From NCBI RefSeq assembly GCF_003334385.1, contig NZ_QOWN01000024.1: a DNA stretch of 64,000 nt; one strand, 5' to 3'. The stretch is from Escherichia coli. GTDB taxonomy: Bacteria; Pseudomonadota; Gammaproteobacteria; Enterobacterales; Enterobacteriaceae. The notes beneath the pieces are model-generated. The model searched no databases. It saw only the letters and a list, made by a program, of their open reading frames with translations, and was not told the origin of the DNA. Made by a program: the position numbers and the translations under genes. Shown in pieces: positions 21,522-33,618 of the stretch. How positions within the stretch are numbered: the first letter of the stretch is position 1; each line of letters opens with the position of its first letter.

Positions 21522-22787
21522 ATGCTCACGAAAAAGAAATGGGCGTTATTTAGTCTATTAACACTGTGTGGCGGTACAATTTATAAATTACCGTCGCTGA
21601 AAGATGCGTTTTATATCCCGATGCAGGAATATTTCCATTTGACCAATGGTCAAATTGGTAATGCCATGTCGGTAAACTCATTTGTTACCACAGTGGGCTT
21701 TTTTCTGTCTATTTATTTTGCCGATAAACTACCGCGCAGATACACCATGTCATTCTCACTCATTGCGACAGGATTACTGGGTGTTTATTTGACGACAATG
21801 CCGGGGTATTGGGGCATCCTCTTTGTCTGGGCGCTATTTGGCGTTACTTGCGACATGATGAACTGGCCGGTCTTGCTCAAGTCGGTAAGTCGATTGGGCA
21901 ATAGCGAACAACAAGGTCGGTTGTTTGGCTTCTTCGAAACAGGGCGTGGCATTGTCGATACCGTGGTGGCATTTTCTGCGTTGGCAGTATTTACCTGGTT
22001 TGGCAGTGGCTTATTAGGTTTTAAAGCAGGCATCTGGTTCTATTCCCTTATTGTGATTGCCGTAGGCATTATTATTTTCTTTGTCCTGAATGACAAAGAA
22101 GAGGCACCGTCCGTTGAGGTGAAAAAAGAAGATGGGGCATCGCAACACACCAGTATGACCTCGGTGCTGAAAGACAAAACTATCTGGCTTATCGCTTTCA
22201 ACGTCTTCTTCGTTTACGCGGTTTACTGTGGCCTGACATTCTTCATTCCATTCCTGAAAAACATCTATCTATTGCCCGTTGCGCTGGTGGGGGCTTACGG
22301 CATCATTAACCAATACTGTCTGAAAATGATTGGTGGACCGATTGGTGGCATGATTTCAGATAAGATCCTGAAATCGCCGAGTAAATATCTATGCTACACC
22401 TTTATCATCAGTACCGCTGCGCTCGTACTGTTGATTATGCTGCCGCACGAAAGTATGCCGGTCTATTTAGGGATGGCATGTACGCTGGGCTTTGGCGCGA
22501 TAGTCTTTACACAGCGAGCCGTATTTTTTGCACCTATCGGCGAAGCAAAAATTGCTGAAAATAAAACAGGCGCGGCGATGGCGTTGGGTAGCTTTATTGG
22601 TTACGCCCCGGCGATGTTCTGCTTCAGTCTGTATGGCTACATTCTGGATTTAAATCCGGGGATTATTGGCTACAAAATCGTGTTTGGCATTATGGCCTGC
22701 TTCGCATTCTGTGGTGCGGTGGTTTCCGTAATGCTGGTTAAGCGTATTAGCCAACGTAAGAAAGAGATGCTGGCGGCTGAAGCTTAA
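21522..22787 (+). CDS. yihN: MFS-type transporter YihN
   Basis: 421 aa, 12 predicted hydrophobic helices. Confidence 0.8.
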   Translation: MLTKKKWALFSLLTLCGGTIYKLPSLKDAFYIPMQEYFHLTNGQIGNAMSVNSFVTTVGFFLSIYFADKLPRRYTMSFSLIATGLLGVYLTTMPGYWGILFVWALFGVTCDMMNWPVLLKSVSRLGNSEQQGRLFGFFETGRGIVDTVVAFSALAVFTWFGSGLLGFKAGIWFYSLIVIAVGIIIFFVLNDKEEAPSVEVKKEDGASQHTSMTSVLKDKTIWLIAFNVFFVYAVYCGLTFFIPFLKNIYLLPVALVGAYGIINQYCLKMIGGPIGGMISDKILKSPSKYLCYTFIISTAALVLLIMLPHESMPVYLGMACTLGFGAIVFTQRAVFFAPIGEAKIAENKTGAAMALGSFIGYAPAMFCFSLYGYILDLNPGIIGYKIVFGIMACFAFCGAVVSVMLVKRISQRKKEMLAAEA

Positions 22788-22793
22788 TTAATG

Positions 22794-22870
<77 letters not shown>

Positions 22871-22877
22871 TTTCACA

Positions 22878-23570
22878 TCAGAAGAAATACTTCGTCCCGA
22901 TACGAATCTGGTTTTGCTCGCGGTGGTACGGTTCGACATTACGATCTAACCAGCGTAATTCGAAATAAGGCAGCCAGTGTTCATTAATGCGATAACGGAA
23001 GGTGTTAGTGATTTCCCAGTGATGATCTTTTCCATTGCTGCTATTAAAGTCATTTACGCGTATAAAATAATGTGGCTCAAATGTATAGGAGAACTTATCG
23101 GTGATTTTAAAATTCCAGTAGGTACCAATTTCATAGGTGTCATTATTATCCAGTTCCCCGCTCAAATCTGTTGAACTATAGTTATTATGGTTATAGCGAT
23201 TTCGTACTGTCAGATTAAACCATGGTACAAATTTATAGTTGACGTCCAGATACACTGCACCACCCGAACCGATACTCTTATCATTAATTAAGCCACCGGG
23301 CTGGATGGTTAATTTATCGGTTGGTTTAAATAACGGATACCAACCTTCGATTTCGTTATATCCATGTTTTAGTTCATCTTCTCGCTGAAAGGTGTAGGTA
23401 TTGGTTAACATAATACCCGCGCCCATATCGAAGTTATAACCCACACGTAGCATAACCTCGCCCTGATCGGAGGCGAGATTATATGCCTCCCTGTTTTCGA
23501 CGTATGCGCCAGCGAATACTGAGGCAGAGGTCAGAGAAGATAATAAAATTATTGCATTAATATTTTTCAT
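22878..23570 (-). CDS. ompL: outer membrane porin OmpL
   Basis: 230 aa from Met MKNINAIILLSSLTSASVFA (signal peptide); beta-barrel C-terminal ...RIGTKYFF. Confidence 0.85.
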   Translation of the reverse strand: MKNINAIILLSSLTSASVFAGAYVENREAYNLASDQGEVMLRVGYNFDMGAGIMLTNTYTFQREDELKHGYNEIEGWYPLFKPTDKLTIQPGGLINDKSIGSGGAVYLDVNYKFVPWFNLTVRNRYNHNNYSSTDLSGELDNNDTYEIGTYWNFKITDKFSYTFEPHYFIRVNDFNSSNGKDHHWEITNTFRYRINEHWLPYFELRWLDRNVEPYHREQNQIRIGTKYFF

Positions 23571-23636
23571 AATAAGTCCATTTTTAAACGTAGGGAGGCC
23601 GCCACCCACCAGGATGGAAATAGCGGCTATTGACAT

Positions 23637-25040
23637 TTATAACGTTACGGAAGCCGTTTTTTCTTCTGTCTCAATTTCTTTATTTTTGCGTTGGTTGATT
23701 TCCTCAATAATCAACGCAAACCGTTTTTCATTGAGTGTGTAAAAGAATCCCATCGTCAATGCAGCAATAATTGCCAGTGCACAAGGCCAGATAAAAATGA
23801 GCTGACGCAAACCCTGTAATGTCGCATCACTTTGCGCGATGTTGGGAACATAACCGATTTGCGTCAGCATAATGCCTGGCAAGAAGCCAGCAAGTGCGGC
23901 AGAAATTTTACGAAAGAAGGTATAACCGGTATAAACAGAACCTTCGGCACGAATACCGGTTTTCCATTCACCGTAATCTACGGTATCTGGTACCAGCGCC
24001 CAGTTCAGGCTGTTTACAAAGGCCGTGCCAAAAAAGGCGACACAAGAGAACATGACGAAAGTGAAAGAGTTACTTCCCCAGAAATAATTCAGGATATCAC
24101 CAACCGCCCATAGCACCATGCCAGCTAAATAAACCTGTTTTTTACCAAAACATTTTACAGTTAATGGCACCAGTAATACGCCGACGAGGATGCATCCCAT
24201 ACTGAAGAATCCCATCCACGACAATAAATTAATATCATTCAGCACATACTGGGTGTAATAGACCTGAATCGCCAGTTTGATATTAAATGCCGCCAGGGTA
24301 CACAAGTTAGCAATGCATAAAACCAGCAATGGCGGATTCCGAAATATCGCGCAAAAAGATTTGAGAATACTGGCTTTATGTCCGGTTGGTGCTGTGTCCA
24401 CATAATGCTCTTTGACGCCTCTGTAGCACAGCATCATAAAAATAAAGCCGCCAATGGAGAACATAAGTGCCGCACAGGCATAACCGACGGTTGAGTCAGA
24501 AAAAAGCGACTGCAACGGAATAAACGCCACGGTACAAATCAATAGCCCTATGGTTGCACCACCCTGGCGGTAAGCCGCGAGCTGCGCGCGCTCATTCGGG
24601 TTTTTGGTAATTGCCGGGATCATCGCGCCATACGAGCAGTTCATCAGACTGTATGAAAGCCCAAACATCATAAACAGCGCCGTGGCAATCGTCGTTTTAA
24701 CCGGCAAACTAAAAGTGGTGGCGATAAACTGGAGCGTTGCAATTAACGCCGCCGGAACCGCTGCATATAAAATAAAGGGACGAAATTTGCCTTTAGGCCC
24801 AATATTTTTCCGCGAGTCGAGTAAAAATCCGGTGAGCATATCGGTAAACGCGGTAAAAAACTTCGCCACCAGAAAGATAATCCCGCCATAGTAAGCTGGC
24901 ATCCCTAATTCATCGGTATAAAATTTGAGGAGATACAGAGTACCGATGCTAAGCATTAAATTCGAACCAACGTCGCCCATACCATAGGCGATTTTTTCCC
25001 ACAGATTCAGTTTTAATGTCAGTGGATTATGGTCAGACAT
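23637..25040 (-). CDS. yihO: GPH-family sugar:cation symporter YihO (sulfoquinovose importer)
   Basis: 467 aa polytopic membrane protein; paralogous to the adjacent yihP. Confidence 0.88.
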   Translation of the reverse strand: MSDHNPLTLKLNLWEKIAYGMGDVGSNLMLSIGTLYLLKFYTDELGMPAYYGGIIFLVAKFFTAFTDMLTGFLLDSRKNIGPKGKFRPFILYAAVPAALIATLQFIATTFSLPVKTTIATALFMMFGLSYSLMNCSYGAMIPAITKNPNERAQLAAYRQGGATIGLLICTVAFIPLQSLFSDSTVGYACAALMFSIGGFIFMMLCYRGVKEHYVDTAPTGHKASILKSFCAIFRNPPLLVLCIANLCTLAAFNIKLAIQVYYTQYVLNDINLLSWMGFFSMGCILVGVLLVPLTVKCFGKKQVYLAGMVLWAVGDILNYFWGSNSFTFVMFSCVAFFGTAFVNSLNWALVPDTVDYGEWKTGIRAEGSVYTGYTFFRKISAALAGFLPGIMLTQIGYVPNIAQSDATLQGLRQLIFIWPCALAIIAALTMGFFYTLNEKRFALIIEEINQRKNKEIETEEKTASVTL

Positions 25041-25079
25041 AATCACTCCTTATAACGCCCCGCAGGGCGTCGTTTATTA

Positions 25080-26465
25080 TTACGCCGTGCGTTTACGGGC
25101 TTCTATTTCTTCAACAATGCGGACATACATCTTCTCGTTCAGGCTGTAGAAGCAGCCCATCGCTACAATGGTGACTACCGCCAGTGCGCTTGGGTAGATG
25201 AAGATCAGCTGGCGCAACCCTTCAATGGTGTGGTCAGCCTGTGCGACGTTCGGCACATAGCCAATTTGCGTCAGCATCCAGCCGGGGAAGAAACCTGCCA
25301 GCGCCTGAGAAACTTTGCGAAAGAAGGTGAAGCCGGTGTAGACCGTCCCTTCAGAACGGACACCGGTGCGCCACTCGCCGTACTCGACGGTGTCAGAAAC
25401 CAGCGCCCAGTTCAGGCTGTTAACAAACGCCGAACCAAAGAACGCCAGGCAGGAGAAAGCCACAAAGTTGACCGAGCCGCCGCCGAAGAAATAGTTGAGC
25501 AGATCGCCCAGCACCCAGATCAGCAGACCGCCAATATAGACCTTCTTCTTACCAAAACGCCTGACTGCACCAGGCATCAGGAACACGCCGATGAAAATAC
25601 AGCCCATGCTGAAAAATCCCATATATGACAACAGGATGGGATCGTTAAGCACGTACTGGGTGTAATAGACCTGAATGGCGAGCTTGACGTTAAACGCCCC
25701 TAAGGTACAGAGGTTGGCAATGCACAAAATGAACAGTGGGCGGTTACCGGCAATTGCGCGGAAAGATTGCAACAGGCCTGGCTTTTGCGCCGGATTGGTA
25801 GGTTGGGTTTCGACATAACGCTCTTTCACGCCCGAATAGCAGATCCACATAAACAGCAGGCCAAACAGTGAAAACAGCGTGGCGGCGAAGATATAGCCAA
25901 GTTGCTGATTACCCTCGATAAGATTCATAACCGGCACGAATCCCACCGTGCACAGCAGCAGGCCCAGCGTAGCGCTGCCCTGACGCCATGCTGCCAGCGA
26001 GGCGCGTTCGTTGGGGTTTTTGGTAATGGCGGGAACCATTGCGCCGTAGGAGCAGTTCATCATGCTGAAAAACAGTCCGTAAAGCATAAACAGAATAGTG
26101 GCCATCACCGTTTTACCGGTGACATCGAACGGTGTGCCGATAAAGTTAGCGATTGCCAATAAGGTAACCGGGAATGACGCATACAGAATAAAAGGACGGA
26201 ATTTACCTTTTGGACCGATCTTGCGTCGGGAATCCAACATGATGCCGGTTCCCATATCGGTAAAGGCGGTAAAGAATTTCGAGATCAAAAAGATAATGCC
26301 GCCATAGGTGCCAGGCAGCCCCAGAACGTCGGTATAAAACTTCAAAAGATAAAGCGTACCAATATCCAGCAGGATGTTAGAGGCCAGATCGCCGATACCG
26401 TAAGAGAGTTTCTCTTTAAAGGGCAGGCGCAAAGTTGCCGGATCTTCCGTTGTGATGTGACTCAT
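25080..26465 (-). CDS. yihP: GPH-family transporter YihP
   Basis: 461 aa from Met MSHITTED; clearly similar to YihO along its length (e.g. shared LYLLKFYTD, LCIANLCTL motifs). Confidence 0.88.
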   Translation of the reverse strand: MSHITTEDPATLRLPFKEKLSYGIGDLASNILLDIGTLYLLKFYTDVLGLPGTYGGIIFLISKFFTAFTDMGTGIMLDSRRKIGPKGKFRPFILYASFPVTLLAIANFIGTPFDVTGKTVMATILFMLYGLFFSMMNCSYGAMVPAITKNPNERASLAAWRQGSATLGLLLCTVGFVPVMNLIEGNQQLGYIFAATLFSLFGLLFMWICYSGVKERYVETQPTNPAQKPGLLQSFRAIAGNRPLFILCIANLCTLGAFNVKLAIQVYYTQYVLNDPILLSYMGFFSMGCIFIGVFLMPGAVRRFGKKKVYIGGLLIWVLGDLLNYFFGGGSVNFVAFSCLAFFGSAFVNSLNWALVSDTVEYGEWRTGVRSEGTVYTGFTFFRKVSQALAGFFPGWMLTQIGYVPNVAQADHTIEGLRQLIFIYPSALAVVTIVAMGCFYSLNEKMYVRIVEEIEARKRTA

Positions 26466-26510
26466 CGTTATTCTCCATTTGCCCGTGAGTTTCCCCACGG
26501 GCGGGCATGA

Positions 26511-28547
26511 TTAGATGTTTTTTAACGAGGCGAACAGTGCAGCCCATTCGCTGTCGGCGCGATAAAAGACCGGCGGCTTGCCGATGGGCGCTTCAACAGT
26601 TATTTCTCCACCGTGGAAGGTTTCTCCGGTCCAGGCGTGGACCCAGTTATCCTCTGGCAGATAGAGCGTCCAGTCGCTGCGACCTTCTTCGTGTACCGGA
26701 GCAACCAGAATGTCGCGACCTAACAGGTACTGATATTTCAGGGAATAGGTCTGCGCGTCGTCTTCGTAATGCAGGAACAGCGGGCGCATAACCGGCAGGC
26801 CGGACTTCGCATTCAGCGCGACGGCCTCTTTCAGGTAAGGTTTCAGGGTGGTGAAGACGGTGGTCATACGGGCGAAATGGGCGATGGTTTCCGCGTCGCC
26901 GTCAAACTGCCAGTTGTCGCCAGGACGGTTACCTTCGTGGGTGCGCATCATCGGCGTGAAGGCGCTGAAATCGCACCAGCGCAGCAGCAGCTCTTTGCTG
27001 CGCTTCATCTCAAACAGGGTGGTATAACCGCCAATGTCGCTGTGATGCAGGCCATGTCCGGTCATTGCCAGAGATAGCGCCGCCGGGACAACCGACGCCA
27101 GGCCATCGTCCAGACTCCAGTCCACGTTCTGGTCACCCGCCCACATCATGGTGGAGTATTTCTGGCTACCGGTAGAACCGGCGCGCATAAAGAAGAGGAT
27201 CTCGCCGAGCTTGCCCGTTTCTTCAAGGGCTTCGTAGTTACATTTCGCCCACAGCGCGGGCCAGGCGTTATGCATAATTTCCGCGCTGATGCCGTTATGC
27301 AGGTACGTGTCGGTGGGCAGATACTCGCCGAAGTCAGCCATCCAGCCGCCGCAGCCGAGTTCAATCATGTTCTTTTTGATAACTTCCTTGAACCAGGCGT
27401 AGGCTTCCGGATTGGTGAGATCGACAACGCCGCCGTAGAACTCGCCAAACTCCACCAGATAGTCGCCACCGGCGACATCTTTTGCCAGATAACCGCGCTT
27501 TGCCGCCTCTTCGCAGAGATCTTTATCACTGGCAACATACGGGTTGATATAGGCAAGGAACTGCACGCCCTCTTTGTTCCACTGCTTGATACGCGAATCC
27601 AGTTGCGGGTAGTTTTCGCTGTTCCACTTCCAGTTCCACATCACGCGTTTGCCAAAAGAGGTCATACGAATACCGGACCAGTCCTGCGCCCAGATGCCGT
27701 TGACCTTCACGCCCGCGTTACGCATGGTGTCCAGTTTCTTCTGGCACACTTCCGTCCCGCCCTGAATGCCGAGCGTTACTCCGTCATAAATCCAGTCGGG
27801 CAGTTCTGGCTGGCGTCCCAGCAGGGCGGTTAATTTTTCCAGCAGGGAGATGTATGTGTCAGCACATTCAAAACGCAGCGTTGCTTTGTCTTCCCACAGC
27901 GCCAGTTCATGGTATTCCGGGGCACTAAAGTCGAAGTTCATATAGCAACTGTTATCAACATGGCAGTAATACTTCTGCGTGCTGACAAACGTAGGCTGTG
28001 GGAAGAAAGTCCAGTAATAGTCGCCGCCCGCATTTTCTTTGCAGTCGGCCTGCCAGGTGACATAGGTTTGTTTATTGCGACCAACGCCTTGTTCACTGGT
28101 CCATAGCGGGAACGGTTTGCCACGCAGATCGAAGTAGGAAAACTGTTCGCCGCAGCCGTAGATATGGTCCTCTGGTTGAGCGGCAAGGCGCAGCCAGATA
28201 CGGTTGTGGTTAAGGTTGTCGTTTTGTAGTTCCAGCAATAAACGGCCCTGATCGTCGGCAGAGATATTCAGCGTGGCGCTAATGTCAGAACCACGGCTGA
28301 AATGGATTAACCAACCATCCGGCGACTGGCTGACGATGGCGTCGGTAAGCGCAATTTTCTCCTGTAGTTTATCTTTAATGCTGAAATTGCCGCGGAACAT
28401 ATCGATATCCGCAATACCTGAACCAATCCATAAACAAGGATTATCTTTGCTATGGGTTAAAATAAGACGCTGTTGAAAATGTAGGGTAAAACTGTCGTTA
28501 TTCTGATGAAACTGAAAATCTGGTAATTGTGGGCGTGGCGTATCCAT
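26511..28547 (-). CDS. yihQ: sulfoquinovosidase YihQ (glycoside hydrolase family 31)
   Basis: 678 aa; GH31 catalytic region (WMADFGEYLP). Confidence 0.92.
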   Translation of the reverse strand: MDTPRPQLPDFQFHQNNDSFTLHFQQRLILTHSKDNPCLWIGSGIADIDMFRGNFSIKDKLQEKIALTDAIVSQSPDGWLIHFSRGSDISATLNISADDQGRLLLELQNDNLNHNRIWLRLAAQPEDHIYGCGEQFSYFDLRGKPFPLWTSEQGVGRNKQTYVTWQADCKENAGGDYYWTFFPQPTFVSTQKYYCHVDNSCYMNFDFSAPEYHELALWEDKATLRFECADTYISLLEKLTALLGRQPELPDWIYDGVTLGIQGGTEVCQKKLDTMRNAGVKVNGIWAQDWSGIRMTSFGKRVMWNWKWNSENYPQLDSRIKQWNKEGVQFLAYINPYVASDKDLCEEAAKRGYLAKDVAGGDYLVEFGEFYGGVVDLTNPEAYAWFKEVIKKNMIELGCGGWMADFGEYLPTDTYLHNGISAEIMHNAWPALWAKCNYEALEETGKLGEILFFMRAGSTGSQKYSTMMWAGDQNVDWSLDDGLASVVPAALSLAMTGHGLHHSDIGGYTTLFEMKRSKELLLRWCDFSAFTPMMRTHEGNRPGDNWQFDGDAETIAHFARMTTVFTTLKPYLKEAVALNAKSGLPVMRPLFLHYEDDAQTYSLKYQYLLGRDILVAPVHEEGRSDWTLYLPEDNWVHAWTGETFHGGEITVEAPIGKPPVFYRADSEWAALFASLKNI

Positions 28548-28655
28548 AAATAATCTCCATAGAGTATAAAGCTAATATTTCATGCCATCCTGTTGTTACA
28601 GGTTTCATTAATTAAAGAATGTGGTGCTGGTATAAATTAAAACCCGCATAAGTGA

Positions 28656-29531
28656 TTATTTACTTTCTTCAGCCCGGCGGATTGCCGCCACTTTTTTACC
28701 AAATGCCAGTTGCAGTATAACTAACAAGGTAAAAGGAGGCAGAAGCGCGGCAGCAGCGGGAATTCCCAGCGCGCCTTTTATCAACATAGAACCGGAGGCA
28801 ATCAGCAACAAAAAGACCATCACACGGAACACTTTGACTGAAATGCGTTTATGCACATATTGTCCAACCAGTGAACCGAGGATCATGGTGGGAATACAAA
28901 ACAGCACCAGTTTAAAGATAGAAACAGTCAAAATTCCGCTGGTCGCCAGCCCGCCGATCACCGCGATGTTGTTTGCGGTGAAGAAAGCGTTCAGAGTGCC
29001 ACGAAATGCCGCCGGGCCTAAGTTACGCAGCATACCGTAGATAACCATCGGCGGTCCGTTGGTTGAAAACGCTGCCCCTAACGCTCCTGCCACAGCGCCG
29101 ATAGGTGCGGCGATCCAGTTGCGGTCATAAATCGGCAGGCGTGGAATAAACATACTGTAAAAGGAGTACAGGATAAGGAATCCGCCTAAGCCCACTTTCA
29201 TAAAATGGTCGGGTAAATATGACAGCGCATATAAACCGACGGGTATTCCCAGAAACGAGAAAATAATCAGTACCATTGCCGATCGCCAATCCGTTTCTTT
29301 ACGTGACAGCCAGGTGGCGTACAAGGCGGTCGCGGTGCCGACAATCACCGAGAGCGGAGTTGCCATTTTTACGGGGAGCATTAACGTGACGAGCGGCATG
29401 GTGGTTAAACCACCGCCAAATCCCGCGCATATCCCCACAAAGGTATAAAGAAACATTAACGCGATAACGATACATACCACGTTTGTTTCCAGCATGACCC
29501 CATCCGGTGAAAATAACGTAAAAAAGTCCAT
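28656..29531 (-). CDS. TauE/SafE-family (DUF81) inner membrane protein, putative sulfonate/anion exporter
   Basis: 291 aa ORF with about 8 hydrophobic helices and the family-typical glycine motif GFGGGL near the N-terminus and a second G-rich helix in the C-terminal half; RBS aggaaat 7 nt upstream; same strand and tight spacing with yihR (60 bp) and yihQ (108 bp). Not a gene I recognise at this position in K-12. Confidence 0.7.
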   Translation of the reverse strand: MDFFTLFSPDGVMLETNVVCIVIALMFLYTFVGICAGFGGGLTTMPLVTLMLPVKMATPLSVIVGTATALYATWLSRKETDWRSAMVLIIFSFLGIPVGLYALSYLPDHFMKVGLGGFLILYSFYSMFIPRLPIYDRNWIAAPIGAVAGALGAAFSTNGPPMVIYGMLRNLGPAAFRGTLNAFFTANNIAVIGGLATSGILTVSIFKLVLFCIPTMILGSLVGQYVHKRISVKVFRVMVFLLLIASGSMLIKGALGIPAAAALLPPFTLLVILQLAFGKKVAAIRRAEESK

Positions 29532-29591
29532 GATATTTCCTGTTGTGTAAATACAACCCTAAACAATGATCTCGTTCTTTTCTTAATAAAA

Positions 29592-30494
29592 TTAATTGTG
29601 CTGCCCGTAAATATTAAAAAACAGGCGGTGCGTTTTCCCTGGTTCCAGTAATAATAAGTCGAGACCTGAATTAAAGGCGTTAGGTGGGCAACTCATAGGT
29701 TCAACTGCCAGTCCCTGACGCTGTAATTTTTCGCCGCTATAAATCTGCACCCAGGGTTGATCGGAACAAAGGCTTACCGAAAGCGCCTGTTGTGGATGGG
29801 TAATGGTTATTTCCCACAGATCATTAGCGGTTTTAAAGGTGTGGTCGATTTTTGTCGCGGCTATTTTTTTCGCCTGCGTGAAATTTAAATCCAGCTCATC
29901 AACGTGGTGAAGCGTTGTCGGATTAGCGTGCTCATCGACGGCATAAACCTGGTTTGCCGGAAGCTGGAACAGATATTCATCAACAGATGTTAAGTTGCAG
30001 GTTAAATAAGGATGAATACCCACACCATAGGGTGCGGTCACAGTACCAATATTCTGACTTGCGATCTCAACGGAAAGACCCGTGCGTGCATTGAGCGAAT
30101 AAACAACCTGCGAAGCCAGCATAAACGGATAGCCGTAACTGGGTGGCAGAAAAGCTGTCAGGGTAACGCTGGTGGCGGTTAATTCGCTGATTTGCCAGTC
30201 ACGCCAGGCGAGCAGCCCATGAATAGCGGCTTTTGAACCATGTTCATTAATGGGTAACTGATATTCCTGCCCCTGATAGCGATAACAGCCGTTGGCGATC
30301 CGGTTCGGCCACGGAATAAGGACTTTGCCCAGATGTGCCAGCGGCATCTCTTCGGGTTTATGTGGAATAACTAAATGACAGCCCTGAAAGGTTAATTCAG
30401 CCAGACCTGCACCGACGGTCACAATGGTCGCGTGATAATCCCCCGCGGCAAGTGAAACGGTCTGTCCACTGCAATGCATGTTGGTGATTTGCAT
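29592..30494 (-). CDS. yihR: aldose-1-epimerase-like mutarotase YihR
   Basis: 300 aa ORF; no in-frame upstream start before a stop 21 codons upstream. Confidence 0.85.
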   Translation of the reverse strand: MQITNMHCSGQTVSLAAGDYHATIVTVGAGLAELTFQGCHLVIPHKPEEMPLAHLGKVLIPWPNRIANGCYRYQGQEYQLPINEHGSKAAIHGLLAWRDWQISELTATSVTLTAFLPPSYGYPFMLASQVVYSLNARTGLSVEIASQNIGTVTAPYGVGIHPYLTCNLTSVDEYLFQLPANQVYAVDEHANPTTLHHVDELDLNFTQAKKIAATKIDHTFKTANDLWEITITHPQQALSVSLCSDQPWVQIYSGEKLQRQGLAVEPMSCPPNAFNSGLDLLLLEPGKTHRLFFNIYGQHN

Positions 30495-30562
30495 ACGAGG
30501 TACCTTTATTGAATAACGACATACCCGGCGTGCAGCCTGATATGTCGTTTTTTTTTAGTCAG

Positions 30563-31804
30563 CTATTTCGCGTTAATATCCAGCAGACCCGCCGCAACTG
30601 CCGGAGCCAGGCCTGGCGCTAACGGGATACGCGGGATCACCAGGCAATGCAGCAGGTGATAAATATCCTGTTTACCGTCCCAGACTTTCGTGGTGACTTT
30701 ATTGTCCGCATCCAGCTCCTGCCACCAGGAACCATTTTCATAGTCCATCAGGTACTTAATGCAGTAGTCCCACCATGTCTGATACCAGGTTTCATACTGG
30801 CGATCGCCGGTGACGGTGTAGAGCGCGTAGGCCGTACCCATCGCTTCGACGATAGGCCAACGCACACGTTCGCGGACCACCGGTTTTCCTTCCCAGTCAA
30901 CGGTATAAACAATCCCGTCCGCACCATCGGGTGCCCAGGCATCACGCACGGTGGCGTTAAACAGACCTTTGGCATCTTCTAGCAGCCATGCTGGCGGTTG
31001 TTCGCAACGGGCTTCCAGGGCCGCGTGGATGTGCAGCATTAAACGGCCCCATTCGATCCAGTGGCCTGGTGTACCTCCGAACGCGCGGAAGCGGTGCGCC
31101 GGGTTATCTTTGTTGTAATCCGGCAGCGGATTCCACTGGGTATCGAAGTGTTCGTTAACGCGATAATGATTATTTCTTGCGACGTCGTGGATAATCACGG
31201 AAGCCACGCGAATCGCGCGATCCAGCCATTTTTTGTCATGCGTTACGTCATAAACAATTAAGAAAGCTTCCACTGCGTGCATATTGGCATTGCCGCCGCG
31301 GTACTCTTCGGTTTTGCTGAAGGCTTCGTCCCAGGACTCCAGGCACATCTGCTCTTCTTCGCTCCAGAAGTATTTCTCGATAATTTCAATGGTGTAATCG
31401 AGCAGCTTGCGCGCTTCCGGATGACCGGTAGTGACGGCGCTGGCAGCACCCAGCAGAGCAAAGAAATGTTGATAGCCCTGTTTGGAGGCATCCACCACGC
31501 CCTCGTCATTCACACAGGCATACCAGCCGCCATATTTTTTATCGCGCAGTGCGCCGTTCATGGCTTTAATACCGTGATCAACCAACGAGTAAGCGCCAGG
31601 TCGACCCATCGCCGCAGCAACGGAATAAACGTGCAACATCCGAGCTGTGATCCACAGATGGGTGCCCATCTCTTCTTTGATTTGCCCTTTATTGCCTAAC
31701 CAGCCAAATCCAGTCGGTACTACGGAATTTTTACCAAAATCAAAGATGCGATCGGTTTCCTGTTCCAGCCAACGGTTGTGACTTAAAGTGTTAAACCATT
31801 TCAT
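30563..31804 (-). CDS. yihS: sulfoquinovose isomerase YihS
   Basis: 413 aa. Confidence 0.9.
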
Positions 31805-31819
31805 TTTTGTATCCCCATC

Positions 31820-32698
31820 TTAACGGCGTTTAGCCATCATTTCGTCGACGATATCGCCCAGTTGTTGTAATTTCGGTGCACAAACGTCACGCAGCATCAG
31901 CTCGTTGTCTGGTAAACCGACGACCGATGCCCAGACGGCACGACCAGCCAGGAAGCCCGATGCACCCGCTGTCATTGCCACGCGTACGGCACGCGGGAAC
32001 AGTTTTTCGTCGACACCGGAAGAGAGGATCACCCACGGCATATTGATATGGTCATTCAGACGTTGTGAAGCACTGAGAAGCTCTTGTTGCGGACCTTTAC
32101 CGTAAAGCGGCATTTCAACTTTGTAGAGGTCAGCGCCACTGTCGCCCAGCTCTTTGGCAGCATCGATGATCGCTTGTTCGCGATCGAATTTATCGCCACG
32201 ACGTGGTGGGCGGACGACTGGCTCAATAATGCTTACCAGGCCGTGTGAGTGGCACAGTTCGTTAAACTCTTTCACCATATCCAGGCGTTGCTGCGCATCT
32301 TCATCACTACGCCACAGCACCAGCAGTTTTAAGGCTTTGCCACCGTCTTGTTTGATCTGTAGCGGATTGATTTTGCGGTCAATGACCACGCTATCTACCG
32401 GAATACCGTTGCCAGGAATGAACTCATCGGCGGCGACAATCATGGCGCAACTTTTGGCAATCGCGTTTTGCTCAACCACCTGGCGGTAACAGAATTGTTG
32501 ATCTACCAGAATCGCCGAGGCATAAGGCGAGAGGGTCTTCGCCGCGTTAACTTTGAAATCAGTTAAAACGCTATCGGCTACCGGAGCGGGTGCCCCAGCC
32601 GCGGCAAACATCATGCGCATGGCTTCGCGCTGATCGACCGCCAGCATGGCAAAACCGCCCGATGCGCGCGTAATGTCGTTGATGGTGTACTTATTCAT
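31820..32698 (-). CDS. yihT: 6-deoxy-6-sulfofructose-1-phosphate aldolase YihT
   Basis: 292 aa class I aldolase-like protein. Confidence 0.9.
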
Positions 32699-32721
32699 TC
32701 ATTTATTCCTTTATCCAGTCG

Positions 32722-33618
32722 TTACATTTTTACTTTGGCAGTCATCCCGGCACTGACACGGACCTGTTCCAGAATGGCGGACCAGTCCTGGCGACCGCGA
32801 CCCGCTGCGCGCGCCTGGCTATAAACCTCCCGTGAGGCGGCCCCCAGCGGCATTGGCACATGCAGCTGGTTGGCGACATCAAGGGCGATGCCAAGATCCT
32901 TATGGGCAAGATCGATCATGAAGGCGGGAGAAAGATCTCCGCTGAGGACTTTGTTTGGCCAGGAAGTGGTGAAGTGGCCTTTACCGGCGGCGGTACCGCT
33001 CATCACTTTGACGGCAACATCGAAGGGAAGATTCAGGGCTTCGCACAAAACGGCAGCTTCTGCCGAAAGCGCATTGAGCGCGATGCTCATATAGTTGTTG
33101 ATGAGCTTAACGCGGATCCCCATGCCCGGACCGCCAGCGTTAATCAACTCACTGCCCATCGCCATCAGGATCGGCGTGGCACGTTCAACTTGTTCAGCGG
33201 TGCCGCCAGCCAGCAGTAACAGAGTACCGGTAATGGCATTTGCAGAAGTACGGCCTACCGGAACATCCATCATGCTGAAGCCTTTGGCTTGCATATCGGC
33301 AATCAATTTATCGGTTTGCAGCGGATGGATGGTCGACATATCAATGAGCAGCGCATCGGTAGATAAGCTTTCGCAAACGCCGTTTTCACCGAACAACACG
33401 CTGCGCACCAGATCGCCATTCGGCAACATGGTAATGATAAATTCGGCATCTTTAGCGGCCTGCGCCGGGGTGGCGGCGGGAGTCGCGCCTTTGTCTACCA
33501 GATGCCGCACAGCCTCGGCATTCACATCAAAGACGCGAAGTTGGTGCCCTTGCTGCAATAAATTGCTCGCCATTGGCGAACCCATTTGTCCTAAACCGAT
33601 AAACGCGATTGCTGCCAT
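32722..33618 (-). CDS. yihU: 3-sulfolactaldehyde reductase YihU
   Basis: 298 aa; N-terminal Rossmann motif GLGQMG (beta-hydroxyacid dehydrogenase family). Confidence 0.9.

What the first reader, a model, noticed from the sequence alone, without database searches (positions are those of the whole stretch)
23637..26465. Tandem paralogous GPH transporters yihO and yihP separated by a 39 bp spacer containing a GC hairpin
Seen in sequence: YihO and YihP are collinear homologs, and the spacer (25041-25079) contains the palindrome acgccccgcagggcgtcgt between the yihP stop and yihO start. Inference: a possible processing or stability element that uncouples expression of the two transporters. Functional division (importer versus DHPS exporter) is only proposed in the literature, and the extra TauE-like gene nearby makes the exporter question more interesting.
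Basis: partly seen in the sequence, partly recalled or inferred. Interest (0 to 1): 0.25.

Follow-up and report, generated by a model that had tools for sequence, protein, structure and literature searches.

The report
Conserved mRNA hairpin between yihP and yihO
The short gap between two sister sugar-transporter genes of the E. coli sulfoquinovose operon holds a small, very stable RNA hairpin that has been kept across many enterobacterial genera, most likely an ordinary "operon punctuation" element that trims how much message each gene retains, with only a mild effect.

Summary
The window is E. coli, and the genes lie on the minus strand. yihP (25080-26465) and yihO (23637-25040) are GPH paralogs, 65% identical, separated by 39 nt. 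The spacer holds the hairpin GACGCCC-UGCG-GGGCGUU (25054-25071).

The hairpin is more than chance:
- It is identical in K-12.
- It occurs in about 40 of 61 yihP-yihO junctions from other Enterobacterales.
- Its stem changes are compensatory: 94.8% of cells pair, against 40-53% for slid controls.
- The inner pairs show 14 G·U and 0 A·C, so the structure belongs to the mRNA strand.
- The loop is UNCG in 24 of 36 species.
- The loop end sits 20±1 nt from the yihO AUG.
- No U-tract follows it, so it is not a canonical terminator. It is not a REP or other dispersed repeat.

It is one of a series. Conserved hairpins also sit in the yihQ|yihP, yihO|ompL and yihS|yihR spacers.

Published K-12 read counts on sulfoquinovose fall at every hairpin junction, but only to 0.72-0.79 at yihP|yihO.

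Best reading: a stem-loop between two cistrons that blocks 3'→5' exonucleases, as the galE E-hairpin does, and gives graded polarity. A role in yihO translation is the main rival. It is a new member of a known kind, of modest interest.

The parts
25054..25071 (-). Hairpin between yihP and yihO on the mRNA: GACGCCC-UGCG-GGGCGUU. It has 7 pairs including one G·U and a cUNCGg tetraloop, with dG about -13 kcal/mol.
   Evidence: for the fold. Conserved with compensatory changes in 36 species. The G·U bias favours the sense strand. E. coli polymorphisms keep the pairing.
25046..25049 (-). Shine-Dalgarno GGAG of yihO, 4 nt after the hairpin and 5 nt before the AUG at 25040.
   Evidence: Read directly. 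The hairpin-to-AUG gap is 11-13 nt in 34 of 39 species.
25074..25082 (-). yihP stop codon followed by an in-frame (UAA)n run: three UAA here, four in K-12. It forms the AU-rich single-stranded lead-in to the hairpin.
25080..26465 (-). yihP, a GPH-family transporter of 461 aa and the proposed DHPS exporter.
   Evidence: RefSeq annotation of the identical strain. TIGR00792 at E 1.7e-160.
23637..25040 (-). yihO, a GPH-family transporter of 467 aa, the sulfoquinovose importer.
   Evidence: 65% identical to YihP. The ATG at 25040 is shared by all orthologs.
26481..26502 (-). Second conserved hairpin, in the 45-nt yihQ|yihP spacer: GCCCGUGGG-GAAA-CUCACGGGC. It has a GNRA loop and the spacer folds at dG about -19. 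It lies 8 nt after the yihQ stop and 4 nt before the yihP SD.
   Evidence: z -3.79; the spacer is 45 nt in most genera; 96.3% of cells pair and 8 of 9 pairs have changes on both sides.
23598..23627 (-). Imperfect long hairpin in the 66-nt yihO|ompL spacer.
   Evidence: A comparable stem is present in most orthologous spacers. No formal covariation test was done.
30515..30549 (-). Hairpin in the yihS|yihR spacer, dG -19.9, with an A-run before it and UUAUU after it.
   Evidence: z -3.98. flags it on the + strand as terminator-like.
28656..29531 (-). TauE/SafE-family membrane protein gene between yihR and yihQ. K-12 lacks it.

Best explanation
The palindrome is a constitutively folded stem-loop in the polycistronic yih mRNA (yihQ-yihP-yihO-ompL).

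Where it sits: it starts about 8 or more nt after the yihP stop codon. From textbook ribosome footprints, that places it just beyond the reach of a terminating ribosome. It ends immediately before the yihO Shine-Dalgarno. It should therefore stay folded whatever the translation state.

Proposed mechanism (inferred, not shown): downstream RNA can be lost in two ways. One is Rho-dependent termination when yihO initiation fails. The other is endonucleolytic cleavage in yihO. In either case 3'→5' exonucleases chew back and stop at the hairpin. The yihP-containing upstream message then outlasts yihO-ompL.

Together with the sister hairpins after yihQ, yihO and yihS, this gives a graded decline in message along the operon. 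The step at yihP|yihO is small, about 25%.

The hairpin is not itself an efficient terminator. Shown here: its existence, conservation, strand, position, lack of a U-tract, and the modest mRNA step.
For: (1) The structure is conserved. 39 of 61 analysable yihP-yihO junctions from other species hold a GC hairpin of 5-10 bp with mean dG -14.4. On 36 species, 94.8% of cells pair against 40-53% for slid controls. Five of 8 pairs have changes on both sides, and 0 of 500 shuffles reach the covariation score. RNAalifold predicts the same hairpin as the only consensus structure.

(2) It is an RNA structure of the sense strand. The inner seven pairs show 14 G·U and 0 A·C. Loops are UGCG, UACG or UUCG in 24 of 36 species and GNRA in 2. 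The O157:H7 variant changes C to U, giving U·G. The antisense copy is weaker (-10.2 against -13.4).

(3) There is no U-tract. The 8 nt after the stem hold 0-1 U in 32 of 39 species.

(4) The architecture recurs across the operon. The yihQ|yihP hairpin is even better conserved, and there are hairpins in yihO|ompL and yihS|yihR.

(5) Published K-12 counts (PMC12608037, Table S3) give these downstream/upstream ratios of reads per kb: 0.33-0.36 for yihS|yihR, 0.44-0.45 for yihQ|yihP, 0.72-0.79 for yihP|yihO and 0.16-0.34 for yihO|ompL. The two junctions without a hairpin rise (1.2-1.9).

(6) There is an experimental precedent in the same organism. The galE 'E-hairpin' has 7 G·C pairs plus 1 G·U, a 4-nt loop and no U-tract. 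It blocks 3'→5' exonucleases after Rho-dependent termination at a cistron junction (PMC9239205).

(7) A preprint reports that only the yihO-ompL part of the operon changed in a ptrR mutant and invokes mRNA degradation.
Against: - No 3' ends have been mapped here.
- The RNA-seq evidence is gene-level, with low counts (about 150-210 reads), two replicates and one condition. A 25% step could be noise, mapping bias or partial termination.
- The yihS|yihR and yihR|yihQ junctions also involve promoters (PMC5816610), so the step pattern is confounded there.
- The tightest positional constraint is the distance to the yihO AUG: 20±1 nt from the loop end in 37 of 39 species.
- In two species where a TauE gene replaces yihP, the hairpin is still flush with the yihO SD. 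Both of these last points fit a role in yihO initiation as well as, or better than, protection of yihP.
- Eleven sampled species lack the hairpin altogether, so it is dispensable.
Confidence: 0.45

Rival explanations
1. The hairpin is part of the yihO translation-initiation region. A rigid stem-loop held directly 5' of the SD stops ribosomes that finish yihP from sliding, scanning or re-initiating. It also defines the standby site. yihO would then be initiated de novo at its own rate, which is translational uncoupling of the two paralogs.
For: The loop end is 19-21 nt from the AUG in 37 of 39 species, while the stop-to-stem gap varies from 3 to 18 nt. The hairpin stays with the yihO SD when yihP is replaced by TauE (L047, L071). 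The yihQ|yihP hairpin likewise sits 4 nt before the next SD. Lineages without the hairpin collapse to spacers of 9-25 nt, the arrangement typical of translational coupling.
Against: Thermodynamic modelling on 39 orthologs shows no gain in SD/AUG accessibility from the hairpin. Deleting it lowers the opening energy by a median 0.6 kcal/mol. The flush position may simply reflect a compact spacer, because SD plus spacing already needs about 11-13 nt. There are no translation data.
Confidence: 0.22
2. It is a weak transcription attenuator. It would work either as a leaky intrinsic terminator with a degenerate U-tract (GGGCGUUAUAA in E. coli) or as a hairpin-stabilised pause at the yihO start codon that favours Rho termination.
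For: There is a 21-28% drop in reads per kb across the junction. The stem is GC-rich with a stable tetraloop, as in terminators. The distant relative L069 has a canonical terminator with a U-run at the same junction. The SD-AUG spacing gives a G-10/Y-1/G+1 pause consensus, read directly from the sequence.
Against: Most orthologs have 0-1 U in the 8 nt after the stem. The consensus scan finds no minus-strand terminator there. The stem ends 3-5 nt before the G-10 position, whereas the his, mgtA and galE pauses show a 1-nt spacing (PMC9239205).
Confidence: 0.1
3. It is a 5' stabiliser of a processed yihO-ompL message. RNase E would cut in the AU-rich (UAA)n lead-in, and the hairpin, now near the new 5' end, would protect the downstream RNA.
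For: An AU-rich single-stranded tract lies directly before a stem-loop. A preprint reports differential behaviour of yihO-ompL alone. The hairpin is associated with the yihO 5' region.
Against: yihO is less abundant than yihP, not more. The AU-rich tract is confined to the Escherichia/Citrobacter group and is absent in Enterobacter and others. Any cut would leave several unpaired 5' nt, which does not protect against RNase E (established knowledge, not tested here).
Confidence: 0.08
4. It has no present function at the RNA level. It would be either a relic of an ancestral terminator or a DNA palindrome serving as a protein operator or an antisense terminator.
For: It has been lost repeatedly (11 species). 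The scanner flags the + strand copy as terminator-like, ACGCCCCGCAGGGCGT followed by CGTTTATTAT.
Against: Compensatory changes and the 14:0 G·U to A·C asymmetry argue for selection on sense-strand pairing. The stem sequence varies, which argues against a sequence-specific operator. The + strand T-run is just the complement of the (UAA)n stops and is not conserved outside one clade. Palindromes delete easily, so retention across about 25 genera implies selection (inference).
Confidence: 0.07

Closest known systems
galE 'E-hairpin' and the cistron-end mRNAs of the E. coli gal operon (Jeon et al. 2022, PMC9239205)
   Same: Both are GC-rich stems of 7-8 pairs with a 4-nt loop and no U-tract at a cistron junction of a sugar-catabolic operon. 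The galE hairpin is experimentally shown to block 3'→5' exonucleases after Rho-dependent termination, which produces natural polarity.
   Different: The E-hairpin lies about 130 nt past the galE stop, inside galT. The yih hairpin lies between the stop and the next SD. Nothing has been mapped for yih. The his-type pause spacing reported for galE is not matched here.
Intercistronic REP/stem-loop stabilisers (malE-malF, hisJ-hisQ; Newbury, Higgins and colleagues 1987; cited from my own knowledge)
   Same: Both are stem-loops after an upstream cistron that protect it from 3' exonucleases and set differential expression within an operon.
   Different: REPs are a dispersed repeat family with a consensus sequence. 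The yih hairpin is single-copy: no other copies were found in the window or in 870 kb of related loci. It gave no Rfam match, and its effect appears small.
C(UUCG)G / UNCG hyperstable tetraloop hairpins in intercistronic regions (Tuerk et al. 1988 PNAS; cited from my own knowledge)
   Same: The loop is U-N-C-G with a C-G closing pair. The second loop position varies (G, A or U) while positions 1, 3 and 4 are kept. The location is intercistronic.
   Different: That is a structural motif class, not a mechanism. E. coli has UGCG, not the canonical UUCG.
Intrinsic (Rho-independent) terminators
   Same: Both have a GC-rich stem with a stable tetraloop. In one distant relative (L069) the junction carries a true terminator with a U-run.
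   Different: There is no U-tract in E. coli or in most orthologs. Transcripts clearly continue into yihO.

Membership tests
Intrinsic terminator | GC-rich stem-loop in the nascent RNA | tested here: met
   7-bp stem, dG -13.4.
Intrinsic terminator | U-rich tract (at least about 5 U in 8 nt) directly after the stem | tested here: not met
   E. coli has AUAAGGAG after the 7-bp stem. The count is 0-1 U in 32 of 39 orthologs and never more than 3. The minus-strand scan does not call it.
Intrinsic terminator | Transcripts end at the site | tested here: inconclusive
   Gene-level counts fall only to 0.72-0.79. No nucleotide-resolution data are available.
REP/BIME dispersed repeats | Many dispersed copies sharing a consensus sequence | tested here: not met
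   Outside this junction, the motif CGCYC-N4-GRGCG occurs only as scattered matches inside coding sequence, in the 64-kb window and in 870 kb of loci. The only REP-like Rfam hit in this region is at 22838-22874.
Intercistronic 3'-exonuclease-blocking stem-loop (gal E-hairpin type) | Stable stem-loop on the sense RNA, downstream of the protected cistron | tested here: met
Intercistronic 3'-exonuclease-blocking stem-loop (gal E-hairpin type) | The upstream segment is more abundant than the downstream segment | tested here: inconclusive
   yihO/yihP is 0.72-0.79 in two replicates with low counts. The direction is right and the size is small.
Intercistronic 3'-exonuclease-blocking stem-loop (gal E-hairpin type) | mRNA 3' ends map a few nt downstream of the stem and depend on stem integrity and on PNPase/RNase II | not testable with these tools
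   This needs 3' RACE or Term-seq and mutants.
Hairpin-stabilised (his-type) transcriptional pause | G-10 / Y-1 / G+1 consensus with the hairpin stem ending 1 nt upstream of G-10 | tested here: not met
   The consensus is present trivially (SD G, AUG U and G). The stem ends 3-5 nt before G-10 (sequence; gaps; the rule as quoted in PMC9239205).
cUNCGg tetraloop hairpins | 4-nt loop U-N-C-G closed by a C-G pair | tested here: met
   E. coli has C(UGCG)G. 24 of 36 species have UGCG, UACG or UUCG. The closing pair is C-G in 31 of 36.
GPH (glycoside-pentoside-hexuronide:cation symporter) family, for YihO and YihP | Full-length match to TIGR00792 above the curated cut-off | tested here: met
   529 and 534 bits against a cut-off of 231.
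TauE/SafE family, for the extra gene | Match to Pfam PF01925 | tested here: met
   E 4.7e-35 over residues 23-248. The transported substrate was not tested.

The most novel reading that the evidence does not exclude
The yihQ-yihP-yihO-ompL message is built from conserved 'hyperstable tetraloop hairpin + SD' modules held at a fixed phase: the loop end is 20±1 nt from the next AUG, and the stem begins about 8 nt after the previous stop. In this reading the hairpin is an active part of initiation at the next cistron. It could work, for example, by blocking 70S scanning or re-initiation, or by docking or stacking beside the SD-antiSD helix. It would set the importer : exporter : porin stoichiometry at the level of translation. 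That would be a general design rule for operon junctions, not a decay barrier.
Probability: 0.15. Interest if true: 0.55.

Novelty: new member of a known kind. Interest (0 to 1): 0.3.

Why it matters
If the hairpins work as proposed, they set the relative amounts of sulfoquinovosidase, the two GPH transporters and the OmpL porin made from one transcript. That bears on how enteric bacteria balance import of an abundant plant sulfosugar against export of its sulfonate product.

They are also clean, covariation-supported examples of unannotated structured RNA elements in the best-studied bacterial genome. They are identical in K-12 and therefore immediately testable.

The practical consequence is modest. 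Anyone deleting or re-engineering yihP or yihO should keep or deliberately remove the 18-nt stem-loop, because it abuts the yihO ribosome-binding site.

Tried and rejected
1. Rfam scan of 22500-33500 at permissive thresholds: nothing at the spacer. The only hit of note is a REP-like naRNA4 partial match at 22838-22874.

2. Canonical terminator: rejected because there is no U-tract.

3. Antisense (+ strand) terminator, which the scanner did flag: rejected. The T-run is merely the complement of the (UAA)n stops and is clade-specific. Pairing statistics favour the sense strand, 14 G·U to 0 A·C.

4. Dispersed repeat, REP or mobile hairpin: rejected because the motif is single-copy.

5. 'SD-presenting insulator': in-silico opening energies of the SD-AUG region for 39 orthologs, comparing wild type with 5'-arm mutant, 3'-arm mutant and deletion, showed no benefit from the hairpin.

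6. The alternative long-range fold of the 71-nt context, which pairs the translated end of yihP with the hairpin halves: not conserved. RNAalifold returns only the local hairpin.

7. his-type pause: the spacing is 2-4 nt too long.

8. Literature: no paper in the library links yihP or yihO with a hairpin, stem-loop, terminator or intercistronic element. The promoter-mapping paper does not treat yihO or yihP.

9. Simple TauE-replaces-YihP exclusivity: rejected. TauE and YihP co-occur in 15 of the 17 loci that have TauE.
Full report
**Identity of the region.** The 3.3 kb around the finding is 100% identical to E. coli strain L73, and 3899 of 5426 complete E. coli genomes carry it. RefSeq annotation of that strain gives this order on the minus strand of the window: yihU-yihT-yihS-yihR-[TauE/SafE gene]-yihQ-yihP-yihO-ompL. 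In window coordinates:
- yihQ is 26511-28547.
- yihP is 25080-26465.
- yihO is 23637-25040.
- ompL is 22878-23570.

The ORF lister offers longer GTG starts for both transporters. The annotated ATGs each sit 5-7 nt after a GGAG, and all orthologs share them.

**The observation.** YihO and YihP are 65% identical over 456 residues, and both are full-length GPH-family proteins (TIGR00792, about 530 bits against a cut-off of 231). The spacer 25041-25079 is 39 nt. On the mRNA strand it reads UAAUAAACGACGCCCUGCGGGGCGUUAUAAGGAGUGAUU.
- Two extra in-frame UAA codons follow the yihP stop.
- Then comes the stem-loop GACGCCC-UGCG-GGGCGUU (25054-25071, dG -13.4).
- Four nt later comes the SD GGAG, and then the AUG.

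Taken alone the hairpin is only moderately unusual. The spacer gives z -2.68 and the 26-nt core z -3.54, but the 71-nt context gives z -0.87 with a competing long-range fold.

**Conservation.** One scan of species-representative genomes returned 72 loci, from Escherichia to Yersinia, Serratia, Pantoea and Budvicia. The yihP-yihO tandem is present in nearly all of them.
- I extracted 61 junctions. Thirty-nine have a spacer of 36-47 nt containing a GC hairpin of 5-10 bp with mean dG -14.4.
- Eleven have a spacer of only 9-25 nt with no hairpin.
- The most distant ones (Yersinia, Serratia, Hafnia, Mixta) have longer spacers with other stems.
- Anaerobiospirillum has a textbook terminator with a U-run.
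- Two pairs of close relatives differ by a clean indel of about 20 nt that removes exactly the hairpin: Rahnella perminowiae against R. victoriana, and Pantoea allii or ananatis against P. stewartii.

**Covariation and strand.** On a 36-species alignment the eight stem pairs form standard pairs in 94.8% of cells. When the 3' partner is slid by 1-3 columns this falls to 40-53%. Five pairs show changes on both sides, and no shuffle out of 500 reaches the observed covariation score. Most of the covariation is in the outer pairs, and the core CGCCC/GGGCG is largely conserved in sequence. The shuffle control does not correct for phylogeny. RNAalifold independently returns this hairpin as the only consensus structure.

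The inner seven pairs contain 14 G·U and no A·C cells. The loop is UGCG, UACG or UUCG in 24 of 36 species, so U, C and G are fixed while the second position is free. It is GNRA in two more.

Within E. coli, K-12 has the identical hairpin and one extra UAA. O157:H7 carries a C-to-U change that gives U·G, and other strains turn the basal G·U into A-U. The hairpin plus the yihO start (50 nt) is identical in 2537 complete genomes and has 1-2 differences in 1339 more.

All of this points to a selected structure of the sense-strand RNA. It does not fit a DNA operator, a cruciform or an antisense element.

**Position.** The distance from the stem to the yihO AUG is 11-13 nt in 34 of 39 species, and from the loop end it is 19-21 nt in 37 of 39. 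The distance from the yihP stop to the stem ranges from 3 to 18 nt and that stretch cannot be aligned.

In Lelliottia nimipressuralis and an Enterobacter MAG, the gene upstream of yihO is not yihP. It is a TauE-family gene whose product, in Lelliottia, is 78% identical to the one in this window. The hairpin AUAGCGCUC-UUCG-GAGCGCUAU is still flush with the yihO SD, now about 50 nt from the upstream stop.

The 8 nt after the stem hold 0-1 U in 32 of 39 species.

**The hairpin is one of a series.**
- The 45-nt yihQ|yihP spacer folds into GCCCGUGGG-GAAA-CUCACGGGC (26481-26502, z -3.79).
- That spacer keeps its length of 45 nt in most genera. The stem begins 8 nt after the stop and ends 4 nt before the SD, and the loops are GNRA.
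- The yihO|ompL spacer has a conserved long imperfect stem.
- The yihS|yihR spacer has a -19.9 kcal/mol hairpin.
- The tightly packed yihU|yihT and yihT|yihS junctions have none.

**Experimental data in the literature.** No paper in the library connects yihP or yihO with a hairpin or terminator.

A 2025 study gives raw read counts for MG1655 grown on sulfoquinovose (PMC12608037, Table S3). Converted to reads per kb, the downstream/upstream ratios are as follows:

| Junction | Hairpin in spacer | Ratio |
|---|---|---|
| yihS\|yihR | yes | 0.33-0.36 |
| yihQ\|yihP | yes | 0.44-0.45 |
| yihP\|yihO | yes | 0.72-0.79 |
| yihO\|ompL | yes | 0.16-0.34 |
| yihU\|yihT and yihT\|yihS | no | 1.2-1.9 |
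| yihR\|yihQ | 198-nt spacer, no tetraloop hairpin noted | 2.1 |

Every hairpin junction is a step down, but the one in the finding is the mildest. The counts are low. Promoters have also been reported in the yihS/R spacer.

A preprint on PtrR notes that only the yihO-ompL part of the operon changed in a mutant and suggests mRNA degradation.

In the gal operon of E. coli, a hairpin of very similar build has been shown to stop 3'→5' exonucleases after Rho-dependent termination. That termination is triggered by failed initiation of the next cistron (PMC9239205).

**Mechanism.** The data fit best with a constitutively folded intercistronic stem-loop that acts as a barrier to 3'→5' decay and contributes a small step to graded polarity along yihQ-P-O-ompL (confidence 0.45).

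Its placement would keep it folded at all times: about 8 or more nt after the stop and flush with the next SD. That is beyond the terminating ribosome's helicase and outside the initiating ribosome. This last point is inference from textbook ribosome footprints.

The main rival is a role in yihO initiation or translational uncoupling (0.22). The fixed phase to the AUG and the TauE-replacement loci favour it. My in-silico test found no accessibility benefit.

The minor rivals are weak termination or pausing (0.10), a 5' stabiliser after RNase E cleavage (0.08), and a relic or DNA-level element (0.07).

**Comparison with known kinds, and novelty.** It works like the galE E-hairpin and the classical intercistronic stabilisers, and structurally it is a cUNCGg hairpin. 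It fails the tests for an intrinsic terminator (no U-tract), a REP element (single-copy) and a his-type pause hairpin (wrong spacing).

It is therefore a new, undescribed member of a well-known kind. It is sound and nicely conserved, but its apparent effect is small and its role unsurprising.

Noticed in passing
window 28656-29531 (-): A TauE/SafE-family gene sits between yihR and yihQ. This 'long + TauE' form of the yih cassette is in 1297 of 5426 complete E. coli genomes, including O157:H7 and O55:H7, and is absent from K-12. The 2025 survey of yih cassette variants describes only long and short forms and never mentions TauE.
   Followed up: partly
loci L002-L073 (e.g. L011:3678-4565, L047:4996-5907, L071:4981-5895): Across 72 species loci the TauE gene occurs in 17, at two different positions (yihR-tauE-yihQ and yihQ-tauE-yihP). 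In two loci it sits where yihP normally is (yihQ-tauE-yihO). That is compatible with overlapping exporter roles for TauE and YihP, but they co-occur in the other 15.
   Followed up: partly
window 25074-25082 (-): yihP ends in an in-frame run of UAA codons whose copy number varies: 3 here, 4 in K-12, and UAA UAA UGA UAA UAA in E. whittamii. Similar runs occur in Citrobacter and Klebsiella spallanzanii. The run also reads as (AAU)n, an A-R-N-type repeat just upstream of a ribosome-binding site.
   Followed up: no
window 23637-26465 compared with L002-L073: YihP is much more conserved than YihO across genera: median 90% against 78% identity to the E. coli proteins, with P above O in 53 of 54 loci. 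Yet yihO is the gene known to be required for growth on sulfoquinovose.
   Followed up: no
window 26481-26502 (-), 23598-23627 (-), 30515-30549 (-): Further conserved or strong hairpins lie in the yihQ|yihP, yihO|ompL and yihS|yihR spacers. The yihQ|yihP one has GNRA loops, a spacer length (45 nt) shared by most genera, and stronger covariation than the hairpin in the finding.
   Followed up: yes
window 30495-30562 compared with L074:13254-13390 (K-12): The yihS|yihR spacer is 68 nt here but 137 nt in K-12. K-12 carries an extra GC-rich segment (…CCCUCUCCCUAACCCUCUCCCCAAAGGGGCGAGGGGAC…) that looks like a small repeat-element insertion.
   Followed up: no
window 22838-22874 (+): There is a partial, sub-threshold Rfam match to naRNA4 (REP-derived) in the convergent yihN/ompL spacer, at 40.6 bits against a gathering score of 59.5.
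   Followed up: no
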